The notes under the pieces: generated by a model
Told to the model about the DNA's origin: nothing
Seen by the model: the letters and a program-made list of their open reading frames with translations, nothing else
The model's database searches: none
Program-made: the position numbers and the translations under genes
In this document: piece after piece, positions 3,295 to 17,641 of the stretch
How positions within the stretch are numbered: the first letter of the stretch is position 1
Layout of the letters: each line of letters opens with the position of its first letter
UHGV virus genome: UHGV-0089955
Length of the DNA stretch: 17,733 nucleotides
Reading direction: 5' to 3' (one strand)
Source of the DNA: a virus

Positions 3295-3371
3295 TGGCGC
3301 GTTGTACTGGATTCGAACCAGTGACCGATTACTTAGAAGGCAATTGCTCTGTCCGGCTGAGCTAACAACGC
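3295..3371 (-). tRNA. argO: tRNA-Arg, anticodon UCU (reads AGA), 77 nt, CCA encoded
   Basis: Hand-folded cloverleaf: acceptor GCGTTGT/ACAACGC, D-arm GCTC..GAGC, anticodon loop CUUCUAA, T-arm ACTGG-TTCGAAT-CCAGT, 3' GCCA. Third gene of an ileZ-argN-argO-type phage array. Confidence 0.85.
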
Positions 3372-3384
3372 AGAATACCGATAA

Positions 3385-3461
3385 TGGACCGCCATCGAGG
3401 ACTCGAACCCCGCGCAACCAGCTTCGAAGGCTGGCGCTCTATCCTGATGAGCTAATGGCGG
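3385..3461 (-). tRNA. argN: tRNA-Arg, anticodon UCG (reads CGA), 77 nt, CCA encoded
   Basis: Hand-folded cloverleaf: perfect 7-bp acceptor CCGCCAT/ATGGCGG, D-arm GCTC..GAGC, anticodon stem CCAGC/GCTGG with loop CUUCGAA, T-arm CGGGG-TTCGAGT-CCTCG. Confidence 0.8.
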
Positions 3462-5562: not shown

Positions 5563-6419
5563 TATTCACACTCCCCAACCAGATTGAGAATGACCGCTGC
5601 ACCGTCGTCTTCCATGCATTCACCCTTACCACTTGCCAGAAACCAGCGGCACACCTCCACGGCTTCAGCGCGTGTCACCGGTTTGATGGTTGCCAGCAAT
5701 TTTTCAAGGTAGCGCTCGCGGTCATATACCGATTCGTGATGCTCAGAGTAACCAAACTCATCGCCCTGTTCTTTAGTTGCAGTGTGGCGAACACTGTAGA
5801 GCCAGTCCCAGTAAACGAACTCGCGAACAACATCAGACAGCGTATAAGGCTCAGGCAGCACATCGCGATATCCATCAACAAATGCCCGACGCTGTTCATC
5901 AATTTCGTTCATGCGGCTGCCGCCAATGCTTCCGGCTTTTTTCTCTGCCGCAGTCCAGCCCCAGAGATGATCGTTGATAAATTTCTGGGAAGACCTGATG
6001 ACCCGCTCTGCTTCCACATCTTCGAGCGCTGCTTCATAGCTACCAAACGTAGCCCTGACTGATGCCGCTTTTTTGATGTTCTCCCGGGCGTTCCTGATAA
6101 CCTGCGCAGGGTTATCCATGCCGATGATGCCGAACGCAACCTGGAAAGGTTCGTAACCATTCGCCAGCAGATAACGCGAATAGCGTTCCTGAGCCTCTTT
6201 TGGGGAAATTTTAATTTTCACCAGCGCAGCCTCAGCAGCATCCAGATGTGCGGGTTCGTTCAGACGGATAACCTCCAGCACCCAAAGATAAGCATCAGTC
6301 TGCTTATGCCCGGTGATTCTCCGTTGCTCTGGCAGGGGCTTGATGTTTGCGAGGGCGGAGCTGTACGCTGCCGTCGGGATGGTGAATAGTGCTTTATGTT
6401 CGTTATTATCAGTACGCAT
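5562..6419 (-). CDS. hypothetical protein, 285 aa, translationally coupled between primase and Q (nin-region position)
   Basis: ORF with TAATG stop-start overlaps at both ends (6419 and 5562); no motif recognised. Confidence 0.65.
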   Translation of the reverse strand: MRTDNNEHKALFTIPTAAYSSALANIKPLPEQRRITGHKQTDAYLWVLEVIRLNEPAHLDAAEAALVKIKISPKEAQERYSRYLLANGYEPFQVAFGIIGMDNPAQVIRNARENIKKAASVRATFGSYEAALEDVEAERVIRSSQKFINDHLWGWTAAEKKAGSIGGSRMNEIDEQRRAFVDGYRDVLPEPYTLSDVVREFVYWDWLYSVRHTATKEQGDEFGYSEHHESVYDRERYLEKLLATIKPVTRAEAVEVCRWFLASGKGECMEDDGAAVILNLVGECE

Positions 6420-14185: not shown

Positions 14186-14228
14186 TACATATGCCCGGTA
14201 TTACACGCCGGGCTGTCTGGAGATAAAA

Positions 14229-14978
14229 ATGAATATTGTAACCATCAACAACAAACAGTTTCCGGTAATCGAATATCGCGGTCAGCGTGTTGTGACATTT
14301 GCAATGATTGATGACGTCCACCAGCGCCCGGAAGGTACCGCCCGTGCTGCGTTTAACCGCAACCGTTCTCACTTTATCGAAGGGGTGGATTTTCTTGAAA
14401 TGACTGCGGACGTAATACGTACGGAGTCACTTTCTGATGCCTTTGCCGCGCGAACTGCCAAAGGGATCATTCTTTTCGAGTCTGGTTACCTGATGTTGAC
14501 GAAGCCTTTTAACGATGCTCTTGCATGGCAGGTTCAGCGCGAACTGGTTAACAGCTATTTCCGAACTCATGCGCCGCTGACGGAAATGGAGATGATCGCT
14601 GCAATGGCCGCCGATGCCGTTCGCCAGCAGAAGCGCCTGAGTCATGTTGAAGAGAAGATCGAAACGGTCACCAAAGCTGTGGAGAACATCAAACGCGGCA
14701 CAATGCGCACTGGATATGTCGGTTACCGCCAGGTGGTAGCCAAAAGCGGAATGAGTGACGCCAAGTGTCGGAATCTGGTCAACGCCTACCACATCCCTAC
14801 CGACACGCACGAATTTATGACTCCGGACGGTCTGTTGTCTCGCAGGGCTGTCGTCGAGCTTGAGACATTTATGGCGGCGTTCCACCAAATGATGTCAGAG
14901 GCTGAACCACGCGGCACACGCTGGTATCACCCGAAGATGGGGCTTTTCCAGGTAATCGGATGGGAGGATAAAGCATGA
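14229..14978 (+). CDS. KilA-N/ORF6N-like domain protein (putative antirepressor-like), 249 aa
   Basis: Start set at ATG 14229 (GGAGA 6 nt upstream) rather than the track start 14154; the N-terminal region (FPVIEYRGQRVVTFAMIDDVHQRPEGTARAAFNRN) resembles KilA-N/ORF6N-type phage DNA-binding domains, a weak assignment from memory. Confidence 0.4.
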   Translation: MNIVTINNKQFPVIEYRGQRVVTFAMIDDVHQRPEGTARAAFNRNRSHFIEGVDFLEMTADVIRTESLSDAFAARTAKGIILFESGYLMLTKPFNDALAWQVQRELVNSYFRTHAPLTEMEMIAAMAADAVRQQKRLSHVEEKIETVTKAVENIKRGTMRTGYVGYRQVVAKSGMSDAKCRNLVNAYHIPTDTHEFMTPDGLLSRRAVVELETFMAAFHQMMSEAEPRGTRWYHPKMGLFQVIGWEDKA

Positions 14979-15544
14979 TCATCCAGTCAAAACTTATTCG
15001 CGCCGCTCTGGTGTGCGCTGCTAAAAACGACGTTCGTTATTACCTGAATGGTCTTCACATCACGCCAAAACATATTGAGGCAACCAATGGTTCCGTGGCA
15101 CTGCGCATGACTCACGGCATCCGGACGAAGAAAAACATCATTGTCCAGTTCGAAGGTGGCGTCCCGGCCAAAGCCGAAACGACAGAGCTGATTTTTAGTA
15201 AAGAGCCGATCGCTGTTCATCGCGACCAGTTTCAGCGCCGACTGTCCATTACCGGCATTAAATTGGTGGACGGTTGTTTTCCGGATTTGGAACGCATCAT
15301 TCCGAAAAAATTTGACCTCTGTACACACCCGGTGATCCAGGCGGGTTACCTGAGTTATCCAGAGAAGATGTTTGGTCGTGAGCGTAAATTTATTCCCGTC
15401 CAGTTACGTCCCTCCGGTGACGGGCAAGCGGTCAGAATTCAGTTTGATTCCATCATCAACTCAATGTATGGCAATCCTGAATTTGTTGTGATGCCTTGTC
15501 GTGATCATGGCGATTTCAATGTGGCTCAGGAGCATCCGGAATGA
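14975..15544 (+). CDS. truncated DNA polymerase III beta-clamp (DnaN) homologue, 189 aa, about one clamp domain plus a C-terminal extension
   Basis: Motifs matching E. coli DnaN domain II as I recall it: DVRYYLNG (identical), ATNGSVALRM vs ATDGHRLAV, KLVDGCFPDLERIIPK vs KLVDGRFPDYRRVLPK; ATGA coupling at both ends. Confidence 0.7.
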   Translation: MIIQSKLIRAALVCAAKNDVRYYLNGLHITPKHIEATNGSVALRMTHGIRTKKNIIVQFEGGVPAKAETTELIFSKEPIAVHRDQFQRRLSITGIKLVDGCFPDLERIIPKKFDLCTHPVIQAGYLSYPEKMFGRERKFIPVQLRPSGDGQAVRIQFDSIINSMYGNPEFVVMPCRDHGDFNVAQEHPE

Positions 15545-15663
15545 AAATCGAATACCAGGACGCCGCAGGAGGTGAATCAATGAGCTGGCCTGATGCAATC
15601 GTAACTCTGGGGATGGTATTCGCAGTAGCGTTTGTTGTGTACTCGATTTGTCGATGGGGATAA
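15541..15663 (+). CDS. small membrane peptide (40 aa; possibly 27 aa from the internal ATG at 15580)
   Basis: AGGAG upstream of ATG 15541; a second strong SD (GGAGGTGA) precedes the internal ATG; C-terminal hydrophobic helix AIVTLGMVFAVAFVVYSIC. Confidence 0.4.
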   Translation: MKIEYQDAAGGESMSWPDAIVTLGMVFAVAFVVYSICRWG

Positions 15664-15667
15664 CCAC

Positions 15668-15910
15668 ATGTTCGCTTTGATTCAACGCGGGCAGATATAC
15701 ACCGATAGTGCTGGCTACCCGATAAAAATTGTTCGCTGCATAAACAACACTGTGTTGTACAGAAGAATGGATGGACGAACACAGTCAGTAAAAATAAACG
15801 ATTTCAATGAACTGTTTGAACGGATTGATCACCAGGAATACCGACAAATTCTGGCAGAAACAGAGCAGGAAGCTCATCTGAAAAAATTACGGGCCATGAA
15901 AAGGAAGTAA
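15668..15910 (+). CDS. hypothetical protein (80 aa)
   Basis: ATG 15668 with GGGGA 8 nt upstream; track ORF start 15632 lacks an SD. Confidence 0.45.
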   Translation: MFALIQRGQIYTDSAGYPIKIVRCINNTVLYRRMDGRTQSVKINDFNELFERIDHQEYRQILAETEQEAHLKKLRAMKRK

Positions 15911-15913
15911 ACA

Positions 15914-16048
15914 ATGAATAAAGCATTTGAACGATGGGTCCACCAGCGTTACGGCAATCGCTATGATCTGACGCGAGATGTTGACGGTTTCTACTGTCGT
16001 GAAGTTGTGAAGCGAATGTTTGAAGTGTGGTGCCACTGCCGTGGATGA
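15914..16048 (+). CDS. hypothetical small protein (44 aa, Cys/His-containing)
   Basis: AAGGAAG 7 nt upstream of ATG 15914; below the 60-aa ORF-track cutoff. Confidence 0.35.
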   Translation: MNKAFERWVHQRYGNRYDLTRDVDGFYCREVVKRMFEVWCHCRG

Positions 16049-16066
16049 AAGTTTTATGAGGTTGGC

Positions 16067-16321
16067 ATGCAGACAATCATCTATCAGATAACCCCCAGCA
16101 AATGGTGTACGGAGAGAGTCCTTATTGCATCAACAGGGCTAAAGCCCGGCACCATCGAGCGGGCCAGAAGAAAGTCATGGATGCAGGGAAAAGAATACCG
16201 CCATTACGCTGTAGAAGGTGATCCTGGGCATTACAGTGAATGCCTGTACAACATCGAAGAAATTATGCGATGGATCGAAAACCAGAAACAACCAGGTGCC
16301 AAAAATGCAAGTTCCGGTTAA
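16067..16321 (+). CDS. xis: excisionase-like protein (84 aa)
   Basis: Small basic protein immediately upstream of and co-oriented with the integrase gene; GAGG SD; assignment mainly positional. Confidence 0.5.
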   Translation: MQTIIYQITPSKWCTERVLIASTGLKPGTIERARRKSWMQGKEYRHYAVEGDPGHYSECLYNIEEIMRWIENQKQPGAKNASSG

Positions 16322-16354
16322 CCTGTTAATGCTCCTGGACGTCTGGGAGGTTTA

Positions 16355-17641
16355 ATGAGTAACGTATCATACCCGACAGGCGTTGAAAACCATGGAGGAT
16401 CACTCCGTATATGGTTTCACTATAATGGCAAACGTGTCAGAGAAAACCTCGGTGTTCCTGACACCGCCAAAAACCGGAAGATCGCAGGTGAACTTCGCAC
16501 TTCCGTTTGTTTTGCAATCAGAATGGGGTGTTTCGACTACGCCACACAGTTCCCTAATTCCCCTAACCTGAAACACTTTGGTCTGGGAAAAAGAGAGATA
16601 ACCGTTAAGGCACTTTCGGAAAAATGGTTGGACCTTAAGAAAATTGAGATTTGTGCGAATGCACTTAATCGTTACCAGTCAGTAATTAAAAACATGTTGC
16701 CTATGTTGGGTGAGAAAAAACTGGTTTCATCCATAACAAAAGAGGATTTACTTTTCGCAAGGAGAGATTTGTTGACCGGTTACCAAAAGCTTTCTAATGG
16801 AAAGATTTCTTCCATAAAAGGGCGCTCAGTGGTCACAGTAAACTACTATATGACAACCATAGCTGGAATGTTTCAATTTGCAACAGATAATGGTTATACC
16901 TCAGGAAACCCATTTAACGGTCTGGCACCCTTAAAAAAGTCCAAGGTAAAACCAGATCCTCTCACCCGTGACGAATTTATTCGTTTTATTGAGGCTTGCC
17001 GTCATCAACAAACAAAAAACCTGTGGATTCTCGCTGTATACACGGGTATTCGTCACGGGGAGCTGGTATCGCTGGCATGGGAAGATATAGATCTTAAAGC
17101 AAGGACTATAACCATCCGTAGGAATTATACAAAACTTGGCGAATTCACTCCACCAAAAACCGATGCTGGCACCGGAAGGACAATTCATCTGGTTCAACCA
17201 GCTATTGATGCTCTTAAAAGTCAGGCGGAAATGACCATGCTTGGAAAGCAACATTCTGTAGAGGTAAAGCAGAGGGAATATGGGAGAAGTACTGTGCATA
17301 AATGCACTTTTGTTTTTAGTCCTCAGGTAATAAAACAGCGGCAGTTTTCCGGACCGCACTATAAGGTTGACTCCATCAGGGAGTCATGGACAAGTATCTT
17401 AAAACGCGCAGGTCTGAGACACAGAAAATCGTACCAATCCAGGCATACTTATGCATGCTGGTCACTTGCCGCTGGAGCTAATCCTAGTTTTATCGCAAGC
17501 CAGATGGGCCACACAAACGCACAAATGGTATTCAATGTTTACGGAGCATGGATGAAAGACAACAATCACGAACAGATAGAACTCCTTAACAAAAGACTAT
17601 CTGAAAGTGTCCCATGTATGCCCCATAAGAAAGCTGGGTAA
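16355..17641 (+). CDS. int: tyrosine recombinase / phage integrase (428 aa) with N-terminal arm-type DNA-binding domain
   Basis: N-terminal arm-binding-like region (GGSLRIWFHYNGKRVRENLG); catalytic-domain signatures (TGIRHGEL, SRHTYACW, VYGAWMK); GGAGG 4 nt upstream; last gene before the presumed att site. Confidence 0.85.
   Translation: MSNVSYPTGVENHGGSLRIWFHYNGKRVRENLGVPDTAKNRKIAGELRTSVCFAIRMGCFDYATQFPNSPNLKHFGLGKREITVKALSEKWLDLKKIEICANALNRYQSVIKNMLPMLGEKKLVSSITKEDLLFARRDLLTGYQKLSNGKISSIKGRSVVTVNYYMTTIAGMFQFATDNGYTSGNPFNGLAPLKKSKVKPDPLTRDEFIRFIEACRHQQTKNLWILAVYTGIRHGELVSLAWEDIDLKARTITIRRNYTKLGEFTPPKTDAGTGRTIHLVQPAIDALKSQAEMTMLGKQHSVEVKQREYGRSTVHKCTFVFSPQVIKQRQFSGPHYKVDSIRESWTSILKRAGLRHRKSYQSRHTYACWSLAAGANPSFIASQMGHTNAQMVFNVYGAWMKDNNHEQIELLNKRLSESVPCMPHKKAG

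What the first reader, a model, noticed from the sequence alone, without database searches (positions are those of the whole stretch)
14975..15544. Phage gene encoding a single-domain fragment of the DnaN beta sliding clamp
The 189-aa product contains sequence blocks I recognise from domain II of E. coli DnaN: DVRYYLNG is identical, and the ATDGHRLAV-like and KLVDGRFPDYRRVLPK-like segments are conserved, but it is only about half the length of DnaN and ends in an unrelated C-terminal region. A free clamp domain could heterodimerise with or poison the host clamp, sequester clamp-binding proteins, or recruit host polymerase to the phage helicase-primase replisome. It is coupled by ATGA overlaps to a KilA-N-like gene upstream and a small membrane peptide downstream, suggesting a functional unit.
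Basis: partly seen in the sequence, partly recalled or inferred. Interest (0 to 1): 0.7.

Follow-up and report, generated by a model that had tools for sequence, protein, structure and literature searches.

The report
Phage mini beta-clamp keeping only the binding pocket
This prophage gene encodes a conserved, cut-down copy of the bacterial DNA sliding clamp that keeps the pocket where polymerases and repair proteins dock but has lost the parts needed to close a ring, so it most likely binds host clamp partners rather than acting as a clamp.

Summary

Residues 112-176 are the second half of DnaN domain III (DnaN 316-366, E = 4.5e-8), ending in the clamp's own C-terminal strand (FVVMPCR versus YVVMPMR). 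The protein therefore equals DnaN about 132-250 joined to about 316-366.

All 18 residues of the clamp-binding-motif pocket fall in the retained parts. All 7 dimer-interface residues fall in the deleted parts. In 140 diverse relatives (median identity 27%) the four best-conserved columns are pocket residues.

The family is large: 549 clusters at E <= 1e-10, typically 170-214 aa. RefSeq already calls it "beta clamp domain-containing protein", PHROGs mislabels it as a RusA-like resolvase, and a 2011 paper noted it in one sentence. No function has been reported.

Best reading: a soluble, non-ring pocket module that binds host clamp-binding proteins, as a decoy or an adaptor. The downstream "membrane peptide" is a deletion chimera.

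The parts
14975..15544 (+). Coding sequence of the 189-aa 'mini beta-clamp' (stop codon included)
   Evidence: The ORF and its translation are. PHROG 3007 matches at E = 5.8e-65. RefSeq names the identical protein WP_000586690.1 'beta clamp domain-containing protein'. dN/dS is 0.09-0.22. The AF2 model has pLDDT 88.2 and pTM 0.84.
14975..15307 (+). Residues 1-111: equivalent of DnaN domain II (DnaN about 132-250), including the RYYL, TNG(H) and FPD..R pocket motifs. The second channel-lining helix is replaced by a loop containing a conserved proline (P64).
   Evidence: The family N-part HMM hits DnaN 136-250 at E = 1.6e-16, and the hhalign alignment agrees. The model has no helix at residues 60-68. 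P64 is conserved in 96% of 140 relatives and has no DnaN counterpart.
15308..15502 (+). Residues 112-176: one beta-alpha-beta-beta-beta unit equivalent to the second half of DnaN domain III (DnaN about 316-365), ending in the clamp's C-terminal strand FVVMPCR
   Evidence: The C-part HMM hits DnaN 316-366 at 19.0 bits, E = 4.5e-8, against -1.7 bits for DnaN 275-300. Pairwise z-scores are 6.9-10.4 in distant members P0062 and P0063. The model's secondary structure here is H123-133, E142-147, E153-157, E169-172.
15503..15541 (+). Residues 177-189: clade-specific C-terminal tail beyond the point where DnaN ends
   Evidence: The tail is absent from distant family members, which end at ...MPxR(L). 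The model has low confidence here, pLDDT 52-72.
14963..14967 (+). Shine-Dalgarno sequence GGAGG, 7 nt before the ATG
   Evidence: Read directly from the sequence.
14229..14978 (+). Upstream gene for an ORF6N-domain, anti-repressor-like protein. Its stop codon overlaps the mini-clamp start (ATGA). Its C-terminal module is the conserved neighbour of mini-clamps in this clade.
   Evidence: Pfam ORF6N matches at E = 3e-13, and PHROG 1726 'anti-repressor' at E = 1.9e-70. The upstream ORF overlaps by 4 bp in 90 of 111 loci. The C-terminal motif RW[YQ]HPxxGxF is present in 70 of 83 upstream proteins, while the N-terminal domains differ (ORF6N, BRO-N, other).
15541..15663 (+). 40-aa chimeric ORF. The first 7 codons belong to a lost ~75-aa gene (phrog_1001). 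A deletion fused them in frame to a 27-aa hydrophobic small ORF (15580-15663) that has its own Shine-Dalgarno sequence.
   Evidence: The BLAST breakpoint against L062 is. In L062 the 27-aa ORF stands alone at 6753-6836 and the intact 77-aa gene lies at 5567-5800. The 77-aa protein matches phrog_1001 at E = 1.7e-38.
15555..15561 (.). Junction of a deletion of about 1.14 kb relative to the common arrangement. The deletion removed most of the phrog_1001 gene and the genes that follow it.
   Evidence: Two HSPs overlap at the junction: window 15481-15561 matches L062 1-81, and window 15555-16400 matches L062 1221-2067. The best full-length E. coli matches to 13300-16400 are in two pieces and carry about 1.15 kb extra, annotated as Ea22-like and DUF551 genes.

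Best explanation
The gene encodes a functional 'mini beta-clamp'. It consists of DnaN domain II joined directly to the C-terminal half of domain III. This three-repeat piece contains every residue of the pocket into which clamp-binding motifs (QLxLF-type peptides of Pol III alpha and epsilon, delta, Pol II/IV/V, Hda, MutS/L) insert. It lacks domain I, the first half of domain III, both halves of the dimer interface and one channel-lining helix. It therefore cannot close the canonical two-subunit ring around DNA.

The most likely mechanism is as follows. The gene is expressed from the prophage's early-left operon on induction or infection. The protein acts as a soluble pocket module that binds proteins carrying clamp-binding motifs and competes with the host beta clamp for them. 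This re-routes or dampens host replication and repair functions during lytic growth.

Shown here: homology, anatomy, selective retention of the pocket, purifying selection, family size and genomic position.
Inferred: that the pocket still binds such motifs (my estimate 0.6), and that the biological role is competition or decoy rather than recruitment (my estimate 0.35 against 0.25).
For: Homology and fold:
- Profile against PDB clamps, E = 1.2e-10; hhalign 97.9%.
- AF2 model with pLDDT 88.

Anatomy:
- The N part equals DnaN 136-250 (E = 1.6e-16). The C part equals DnaN 316-366 (E = 4.5e-8) and not the first half of domain III.

Pocket (the 18 pocket residues are listed in PMC11139829):
- All 18 lie in the retained segments.
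- The window protein keeps 11 identical and 2 conservatively replaced.
- Identity to E. coli DnaN is 69% at pocket positions against 17% elsewhere in 18 relatives (p = 1e-6). It is 67% against 19% in 140 relatives with median pairwise identity 27%.
- In those 140 relatives the four most conserved columns are R152, G174, P242 and M362, and 10 of the top 20 columns are pocket positions (hypergeometric p = 6e-7).
- The Gln-binding subsite II (N320, Y323, P363, R365) is kept as well, which points to canonical Q-containing motifs.

Loss of ring features:
- The dimer-interface residues I78, F106, R103, I272, L273, E298 and E304 all lie in the missing segments.
- The helix equivalent to DnaN 197-209 is replaced by a loop with a 96%-conserved proline.

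A functional gene:
- dN/dS is 0.09-0.22.
- The family has 549 clusters at E <= 1e-10, and most of the 150 listed hits are 170-214 aa and end at the MPxR strand.
- BFVD holds many phage proteins of 163-215 aa with TM 0.7-0.8 to the model.

An accessory role rather than a core replisome role:
- The gene lies among early accessory genes between the repressor and xis/int.
- It is a lone opposite-strand insert inside structural modules in Dhillonvirus Bas14 and Shewanella phage 1/41.
- It occurs in a phage with no annotated polymerase (Bas77) and in one with its own Pol I (Bas14).
Against: - No binding was measured, and no complex or oligomer could be modelled with the tools available.
- Pocket residues are also the most conserved residues of cellular DnaN, and some (G174, P242) are structural. 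Part of the enrichment could therefore reflect fold constraints.
- This window's copy has Ser where 90% of the family and DnaN have His175, which bridges the two subsites. It also has Gln for N320 and Cys for M364, so its specificity may differ.
- A decoy that titrates Pol III or the clamp loader would also hurt a lambdoid phage that depends on host Pol III.
- The family is mildly basic (window pI 9.1, family median 8.5, against 6.1 for the same part of DnaN), which would suit direct DNA binding.
- No convincing clamp-binding motif was found in the window's own proteins above chance.
Confidence: 0.5

Rival explanations
1. Adaptor or tether. The same pocket binds host Pol III (or another motif-bearing enzyme), and the aim is recruitment. 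The mini-clamp would hold the enzyme at phage DNA without a clamp loader. It could do so through a partner such as the translationally coupled anti-repressor-like DNA-binding protein, or by binding DNA directly as the non-ring herpesvirus factors UL42 and UL44 do.
For: - The pocket is conserved.
- The pI is basic, unlike DnaN. The literature links basic pI to non-ring viral clamps that need no loader (PMC3201878; PMC9690074).
- In 90 of 111 loci the upstream gene overlaps by ATGA. In this clade it is a DNA-binding-type protein whose C-terminal module stays linked to the mini-clamp while its N-terminal domain is swapped.
- That module contains ...HPKMGLF..., which resembles the Pol II (QLGLF) and delta (AMSLF) motifs.
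- Many carrier phages have a helicase or primase but no annotated polymerase.
Against: - The gene also occurs in a phage with its own Pol I, far from that gene.
- Outside the enterobacterial prophage clade there is no conserved neighbour.
- The MGLF element is EFGGF in 18 partners, which lacks the key Leu, so it is not a canonical motif.
- One channel-lining helix is lost.
- No second family-wide conserved surface stands out beyond the pocket.
Confidence: 0.25
2. Unconventional processivity clamp. The three-repeat protein self-assembles into a closed or C-shaped clamp. Examples are four copies giving the 12 repeats of a full ring, or a two-fold dimer that completes the split half-domain. This clamp would serve host or phage polymerases.
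For: - It has exactly 3 of the 12 beta-alpha-beta-beta-beta repeats of a ring.
- The half-domain III-b would otherwise expose the face that packs against III-a in DnaN. This is an inference from the clamp fold.
- Database annotators call these genes 'DNA polymerase III beta subunit'.
Against: - The native dimer interface is absent (residue list).
- A channel helix is missing and is replaced by a proline loop.
- The monomer model is confident and compact (pTM 0.84).
- No clamp-loader gene and no linked polymerase gene is present.
- Oligomers could not be modelled here.
Confidence: 0.1
3. Clamp poison. The fragment pairs with a host DnaN protomer and blocks ring closure.
For: The homology to DnaN is real.
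Against: Both sides of the head-to-tail interface lie in the segments this protein lacks: domain I residues I78, R103, F106, and III-a residues I272, L273, E298, E304.
Confidence: 0.03
4. Non-functional remnant of a captured dnaN gene, or a RusA-like Holliday junction resolvase as PHROG 3007 is labelled.
For: - Fels-1 carries only a split C-terminal remnant.
- The PHROG label is 'RusA-like Holliday junction resolvase'.
Against: - dN/dS is 0.09-0.22.
- The architecture is constant across 549 clusters.
- There is no RusA Pfam match even at E <= 1.
- The fold is a clamp, not RusA.
Confidence: 0.02

Closest known systems
Bacterial beta sliding clamp (DnaN, DNA polymerase III beta subunit; TIGR00663; Pfam PF00712/PF02767/PF02768)
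   Same: Homologous sequence and fold. The clamp-binding-motif pocket residues and the C-terminal ...VVMPxR strand are retained.
   Different: - 189 aa instead of 366 aa.
- No domain I and no first half of domain III.
- No dimer-interface residues.
- One channel helix lost.
- Basic instead of acidic pI.
- Fails the curated cut-offs for the family.
'Shorter' phage polIII-beta homologs noted by Kazlauskas and Venclovas 2011 (PMC3201878); PHROG 3007; RefSeq 'beta clamp domain-containing protein'
   Same: This gene belongs to that group. PHROG 3007 matches at E = 5.8e-65. It carries the RefSeq name. It is homologous to the Bcep781, Dhillonvirus and T1-like phage genes annotated as beta subunit.
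   Different: [quoted passage not shown] Here the third domain is shown to be only its C-terminal half, and the pocket is shown to be the selectively retained feature. The PHROG functional label (RusA-like resolvase) is wrong.
Monomeric beta clamp variant I272A/L273A and its complex with the clamp-loader delta subunit (PDB 1JQL)
   Same: It is a non-ring form of beta that keeps the pocket. The review reports that delta binds it about 50-fold more tightly than it binds the ring (PMC11139829). This shows that a pocket freed from the ring can be a strong ligand trap.
   Different: It is a laboratory mutant with all three domains. The phage protein is a natural protein of about 1.5 domains, and it lacks the III-a loop that delta also contacts.
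Non-ring herpesvirus processivity factors UL42 and UL44
   Different: They have two full domains and bind their own polymerase and DNA. They are related to PCNA, not DnaN. The phage gene is not linked to a polymerase gene.
Phage proteins that target or use the host clamp pocket from the other side (Mu MuC with two clamp-binding motifs, PMC12867686; Twort Gp168, PDB 7EVP)
   Same: They act on the same host interface, the beta pocket and its motif-bearing partners, during phage development.
   Different: Those proteins carry the motif or bind the clamp. This protein carries the pocket, so it is the mirror-image strategy.

Membership tests
Bacterial beta sliding clamp DnaN | Detectable sequence homology and clamp fold | tested here: met
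Bacterial beta sliding clamp DnaN | Three-domain architecture of about 366 aa that passes the curated family cut-offs | tested here: not met
   The protein is 189 aa. TIGR00663 scores 19.1 bits against a cut-off of 137.65. PF02767 scores 17.4 bits against 27, and there is no PF00712 or PF02768 hit. Only DnaN 136-250 and 316-366 are matched.
Bacterial beta sliding clamp DnaN | Head-to-tail dimer interface (I78, F106, R103 with I272, L273, E298, E304) | tested here: not met
   All seven residues (PMC11139829) lie in the DnaN segments that have no counterpart in this protein.
Bacterial beta sliding clamp DnaN | Hydrophobic pocket for clamp-binding motifs (subsites I and II, 18 residues) | tested here: met
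   All 18 positions are present. In the window protein 11 are identical and 2 conservatively replaced. The family averages 67-69% identity at pocket positions against 17-19% elsewhere. Actual binding was not tested.
Bacterial beta sliding clamp DnaN | Closed ring lined by 12 helices that encircles DNA and is loaded by the clamp loader | not testable with these tools
   Oligomers and DNA complexes could not be modelled. Indirectly, the model lacks the helix equivalent to DnaN 197-209, and no clamp-loader gene is present in the window.
Short phage polIII-beta homologs (PHROG 3007; Kazlauskas and Venclovas 2011) | Phage or prophage protein of about 170-210 aa matching the family profile end to end | tested here: met
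   PHROG 3007 matches at E = 5.8e-65 over residues 1-179. There are 253 phage records with homologs. Most of the 150 listed relatives are 170-214 aa.
RusA Holliday junction resolvase (the label attached to PHROG 3007) | Match to the RusA family (Pfam PF05866) and RusA fold | tested here: not met
   There is no RusA hit at E <= 1. All significant structural neighbours are clamps. A true RusA gene sits elsewhere in a related marine phage.
Non-ring viral processivity factors (UL42/UL44 type) | Basic DNA-binding face and partnership with a cognate viral polymerase | tested here: inconclusive
   The pI is 9.08 (family median 8.5) against 6.06 for the same part of DnaN, but no surface analysis was possible. 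There is no polymerase gene in the window. In Bas14 the gene lies far from that phage's Pol I gene.
Known anti-phage defence systems (PADLOC) | Match to a defence-system protein model | tested here: not met
   No PADLOC hit for the mini-clamp or for six neighbouring proteins.

The most novel reading that the evidence does not exclude
Phages of Proteobacteria widely encode a 'pocket-only' beta clamp. It would be a natural soluble competitor for the clamp-binding motif. It would titrate host replisome, repair or initiation-control proteins (for example the clamp-loader delta subunit, Hda, translesion polymerases, MutS/L) away from the host clamp. That would be a previously undescribed class of host-takeover factor, and the mirror image of phage proteins that carry clamp-binding motifs.
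Probability: 0.35. Interest if true: 0.8.

Novelty: new variant of a known kind. Interest (0 to 1): 0.6.

Why it matters
The beta-clamp pocket is the hub through which bacterial polymerases, repair enzymes and the initiation regulator Hda are coordinated, and it is an antibiotic target. A large phage family has kept exactly that pocket while discarding everything needed to be a clamp. This suggests that phages manipulate the hub with a molecular decoy or adaptor.

If confirmed, it would have several consequences:
- It would add a new host-takeover mechanism.
- It would give a natural minimal scaffold (189 aa, probably monomeric) for studying or screening pocket ligands.
- It would correct hundreds of database annotations that now read 'DNA polymerase III beta subunit' or 'RusA-like Holliday junction resolvase'.

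The question can be tested directly with peptide-binding assays and pull-downs.

Tried and rejected
- Near-identical DNA search in the phage collection found nothing. The gene is known from prophages in E. coli genomes instead.
- A scan of the window's 23 proteins for clamp-binding motifs gave counts equal to chance: 2 pentamer and 1 hexamer matches against 1.2 and 1.1 expected. One exact QLxLxF (QLLLRF in ORF 11953-12312) was not pursued.
- The ...KMGLF... element near the C-terminus of the upstream ORF6N protein looked like a motif. It lies in a conserved module, and 18 partners have EFGGF there, so I kept it only as a weak lead.
- The idea that the gene is restricted to phages without a polymerase was rejected. 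Dhillonvirus Bas14 has Pol I.
- The long homologs P0013 and P0035 were checked as possible natural fusions to use as pseudo-complexes. One is a C-terminal coiled-coil read-through and the other a mis-called start.
- Model coordinates are not exposed to scripts. Pocket geometry, surface charge and oligomer interfaces could therefore not be inspected, and complexes could not be predicted.
- Defence-system models gave no hit.
- Literature searches for a characterised phage 'beta clamp domain', 'DnaN-like' or 'clamp-like' protein found nothing beyond the 2011 one-line note. The library lacks most subscription journals.
- The promoter and terminator scan found no plus-strand site in 12300-16400. 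This is compatible with one long early transcript but is weak evidence.
Full report
WHAT IS THERE. The window is the early region of a lambdoid prophage. Near-identical copies lie next to yecE/yecN/cmoA in E. coli. On the plus strand an S24-type repressor (10139-10831) is followed by a run of small accessory genes, an excisionase (16067-16321) and an integrase (16355-17641). On the minus strand lie a cro-like gene, a DEAD/DEAH helicase (7389-9047), a toprim protein (6419-7387) and an antiterminator. The finding is the ORF at 14975-15544 (+), 189 aa. It has a GGAGG ribosome-binding site 7 nt upstream and ATGA stop/start overlaps at both ends. No plus-strand promoter-like or terminator-like site lies between 12300 and 16400. 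This fits one long early-left transcript, though the evidence is weak.

IS THE DnaN SIMILARITY REAL? DVRYYLNG is identical to E. coli DnaN 150-157. KLVDGCFPDLERIIPK aligns with KLVDGRFPDYRRVLPK. The alignment is collinear over DnaN 136-253. With the single sequence the statistics are marginal:
- Pfam PF02767 gives E = 0.005, below the gathering score.
- TIGR00663 scores 19 bits against a cut-off of 137.
- PDB phmmer gives E = 0.002-0.003.

ANATOMY: NOT ONE DOMAIN PLUS AN UNRELATED TAIL. 163 superposed residues are more than one ~120-residue clamp domain. Distant family members end in ...VVMPMRI or ...VVMPCRL and carry IGFNxSY, which are the hallmarks of DnaN's last helix and last strand. Three results place the C-terminal module:
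- Pairwise tests put the C-terminal ~65 residues on the second half of domain III. z is 6.9-10.4 there, against 2.1-4.4 for the first half and about 0 for other half-domains.
- A profile of that module from 140 diverse relatives hits DnaN 316-366 at 19.0 bits, E = 4.5e-8. The first half of domain III scores -1.7 bits.
- The N-terminal part hits DnaN 136-250 at E = 1.6e-16.

WHAT WAS KEPT AND WHAT WAS LOST. A 2024 review lists the 18 residues of the clamp-binding-motif pocket (PMC11139829):
- Subsite I: R152, L155, T172, G174, H175, R176, L177, P242, R246, V247, V360, M362.
- Subsite II: H175, N320, Y323, V344, M362, P363, M364, R365.
- Dimer-interface residues: I78, F106, I272, L273 and the charged R103, E298, E304.

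All 18 pocket positions fall in the retained segments. All 7 interface residues fall in the deleted segments. The window protein keeps 11 pocket residues identical and 2 conservatively replaced. Among 18 relatives, identity to E. coli DnaN is 69% at pocket positions against 17% elsewhere (Mann-Whitney p = 1e-6). Among 140 representatives at <=50% mutual identity (median pairwise identity 27%) it is 67% against 19%. In that set the four most conserved columns of the whole family are R152, G174, P242 and M362 (97-99%). Ten of the twenty most conserved columns are pocket positions (hypergeometric p = 6e-7). Subsite II, which holds the motif's glutamine, is conserved too: Y323 88%, P363 92%, R365 79%, N320 67%.

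One caveat applies. These are also the most conserved residues of cellular DnaN, and some are structural. Other DnaN features were discarded, however, so the retention is selective.

A REAL, WIDESPREAD GENE. dN/dS against copies 77-94% identical in DNA is 0.09-0.22. The gene was found in 60 of 5,426 complete E. coli genomes, and 59 of the 60 matches span the whole gene. The exact protein occurs on at least 1,000 contigs. An exhaustive profile search found 4,210 cluster representatives at E <= 1e-3 and 549 at E <= 1e-10. Most of the 150 listed hits are 170-214 aa, and most run to the MPxR strand. tblastn finds homologs in 253 phage records, covering Salmonella, Escherichia, Klebsiella, Vibrio, Acinetobacter, Burkholderia, Shewanella and other phages. 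BFVD contains many phage proteins of 163-215 aa with TM 0.7-0.8 to the model.

CONTEXT. In enterobacterial prophages the gene always lies among early accessory genes between the repressor and xis/int, while the replication modules differ. Its position varies in other phages:
- In the T1-like lytic phages DS8 and Bas77 it ends an early operon next to ParB-like and methylase genes. Bas77 has no annotated polymerase.
- In Dhillonvirus Bas14 and Shewanella phage 1/41 it is a lone opposite-strand gene inside the structural module. Bas14 encodes its own Pol I.
- A marine phage has it after a DnaB-like helicase and nin-type genes.

This patchy, moron-like distribution, independent of replication strategy, argues for an accessory, host-directed function with a ligand conserved across hosts. 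It argues against a core replisome part.

I analysed 111 related loci. The upstream ORF overlaps by 4 bp in 90 loci, and the downstream ORF does so in 84. In this clade the upstream protein is anti-repressor-like. Its N-terminal domain is swapped (ORF6N, BRO-N, others), but its C-terminal module is shared, with RW[YQ]HPxxGxF in 70 of 83 loci. The usual downstream partner is a ~75-aa protein, phrog_1001, of unknown function (73 loci).

THE 'MEMBRANE PEPTIDE'. Compared with the common arrangement (L062), the window has a deletion of about 1.14 kb. Window 15481-15561 matches the start of the phrog_1001 gene, and homology resumes at window 15555 with sequence about 1.14 kb further downstream in L062. 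The deletion fused the first seven codons (MKIEYQD) in frame to the leader of an independent 27-aa hydrophobic ORF. In L062 that ORF stands alone with its own GGAGGTGA ribosome-binding site, just before the DUF4222 gene. The 40-aa ORF and its ATGA coupling are therefore by-products of a deletion. The mini-clamp remains intact and constrained without phrog_1001.

MECHANISM. Shown: homology, fold, the domain II + half-domain III anatomy, selective pocket retention, loss of ring-forming elements, purifying selection and accessory genomic placement.

Inferred: the protein binds clamp-binding motifs and does not encircle DNA. I favour a soluble competitor of the host clamp for motif-bearing proteins. 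The review notes that the clamp-loader delta subunit binds a monomeric clamp about 50-fold more tightly than the ring. A free pocket can therefore be a strong trap. Conservation of the glutamine subsite points to canonical partners such as polymerases, Hda and MutS. Phage use of this interface has precedent from the other side: Mu MuC carries two clamp-binding motifs and perturbs Hda-dependent control (PMC12867686), and Twort Gp168 binds the clamp (7EVP).

The main rival is recruitment rather than competition. The same pocket would tether host polymerase to phage DNA through the coupled DNA-binding protein, or through direct DNA binding as in herpesvirus UL42/UL44. This is compatible with the basic pI (9.1 against 6.1 for the same part of DnaN). 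A self-assembling unconventional ring cannot be excluded without oligomer data. Poisoning of the host ring through the native interface is unlikely, because that interface is absent. The pseudogene reading and the RusA-resolvase reading are contradicted.

COMPARISON WITH WHAT IS KNOWN. RefSeq already names the protein 'beta clamp domain-containing protein'. Phage depositors call homologs 'DNA polymerase III beta subunit', and PHROG 3007 carries the wrong label 'RusA-like Holliday junction resolvase'. [quoted passage not shown] I found no functional study, within a library that omits most subscription journals. The existence of the family is therefore known. The precise anatomy, the pocket-only logic and the scale of the family appear not to have been described.

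VERDICT. This is a new variant of a known kind: a non-ring, pocket-retaining derivative of the beta clamp. It belongs to an already annotated but uncharacterised phage family. Interest 0.6.

Noticed in passing
window 15541-15663 and 15555-15561: A deletion of about 1.14 kb relative to the common prophage arrangement removed the conserved ~75-aa phrog_1001 gene and the following Ea22-like and DUF551 genes. It created a 40-aa chimeric ORF. The underlying 27-aa hydrophobic ORF (15580-15663, own Shine-Dalgarno sequence) is conserved as a separate small gene before DUF4222 in other prophages.
   Followed up: yes
window 15092-15094 (codon 40 of the mini-clamp): The residue equivalent to DnaN His175, which bridges the two pocket subsites, is Ser in this window. 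It is Phe in E. coli A34, and His in strain G3/10, Providencia and 90% of the family. This may reflect tuning of ligand specificity within the E. coli clade.
   Followed up: partly
window 14229-14978; loci L010, L011, L007 and 83 others: The anti-repressor-like proteins upstream of mini-clamps share a C-terminal module (phrog_6610; RW[YQ]HPxxGxF, most often ...HPKMGLFQVIGWE...). Their N-terminal DNA-binding domains are exchanged (ORF6N, BRO-N, others). MGLF resembles clamp-binding motifs, but 18 partners have EFGGF.
   Followed up: partly
PHROG 3007 and many RefSeq phage records (for example NC_025458.1, NC_031924.1, NC_054650.1): The family is labelled 'RusA-like Holliday junction resolvase' in PHROGs, and the label has propagated into RefSeq phage annotations. 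There is no RusA signature and the fold is a clamp, so the label is an annotation error.
   Followed up: yes
window 13358-14185 (+): A prophage-encoded SPFH (band-7, HflK/C-like) protein with a lipoprotein-type signal sequence (…LVGC) lies in the early-left operon. Host HflK/C modulates FtsH, which controls lambda CII and CIII, so a phage copy could bear on the lysis-lysogeny decision.
   Followed up: no
window 11953-12312 (+), residues 51-56: A 119-aa hypothetical protein in the same operon contains QLLLRF, an exact match to the high-affinity hexameric clamp-binding consensus QLxLxF. One such match is expected by chance, and its conservation was not checked.
   Followed up: no
window 3295-3371 and 3385-3461 (-): There are two tandem tRNA-Arg genes (anticodons TCT and TCG) in the late-regulatory region of the prophage, downstream of the antiterminator gene.
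   Followed up: no
L012 (Salmonella phage Fels-1, NC_010391.1 2520-3154): Fels-1 retains only the C-terminal ~110 residues of a mini-clamp (72% identical), split over two small annotated ORFs (STM0896, STM0896.2n). This is a decayed copy, and it is probably the source of PHROG 27198.
   Followed up: partly
protein collection, cluster of the window protein: The 90%-identity cluster that holds the window's mini-clamp is represented by a 249-aa ORF6N protein and mixes both gene products. This looks like a clustering artefact, possibly caused by read-through or fused gene calls across the ATGA overlap.
   Followed up: no
P0013 (282 aa): One homolog is a mini-clamp whose pocket strand reads VVMRCR. 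It continues into a ~100-aa coiled-coil extension, probably a frameshift fusion with a downstream Ea22-like gene.
   Followed up: no
window 12493-12711 (+): RefSeq annotates the near-identical prophage gene as a 'ParE family toxin-like protein', with no obvious antitoxin partner annotated beside it.
   Followed up: no
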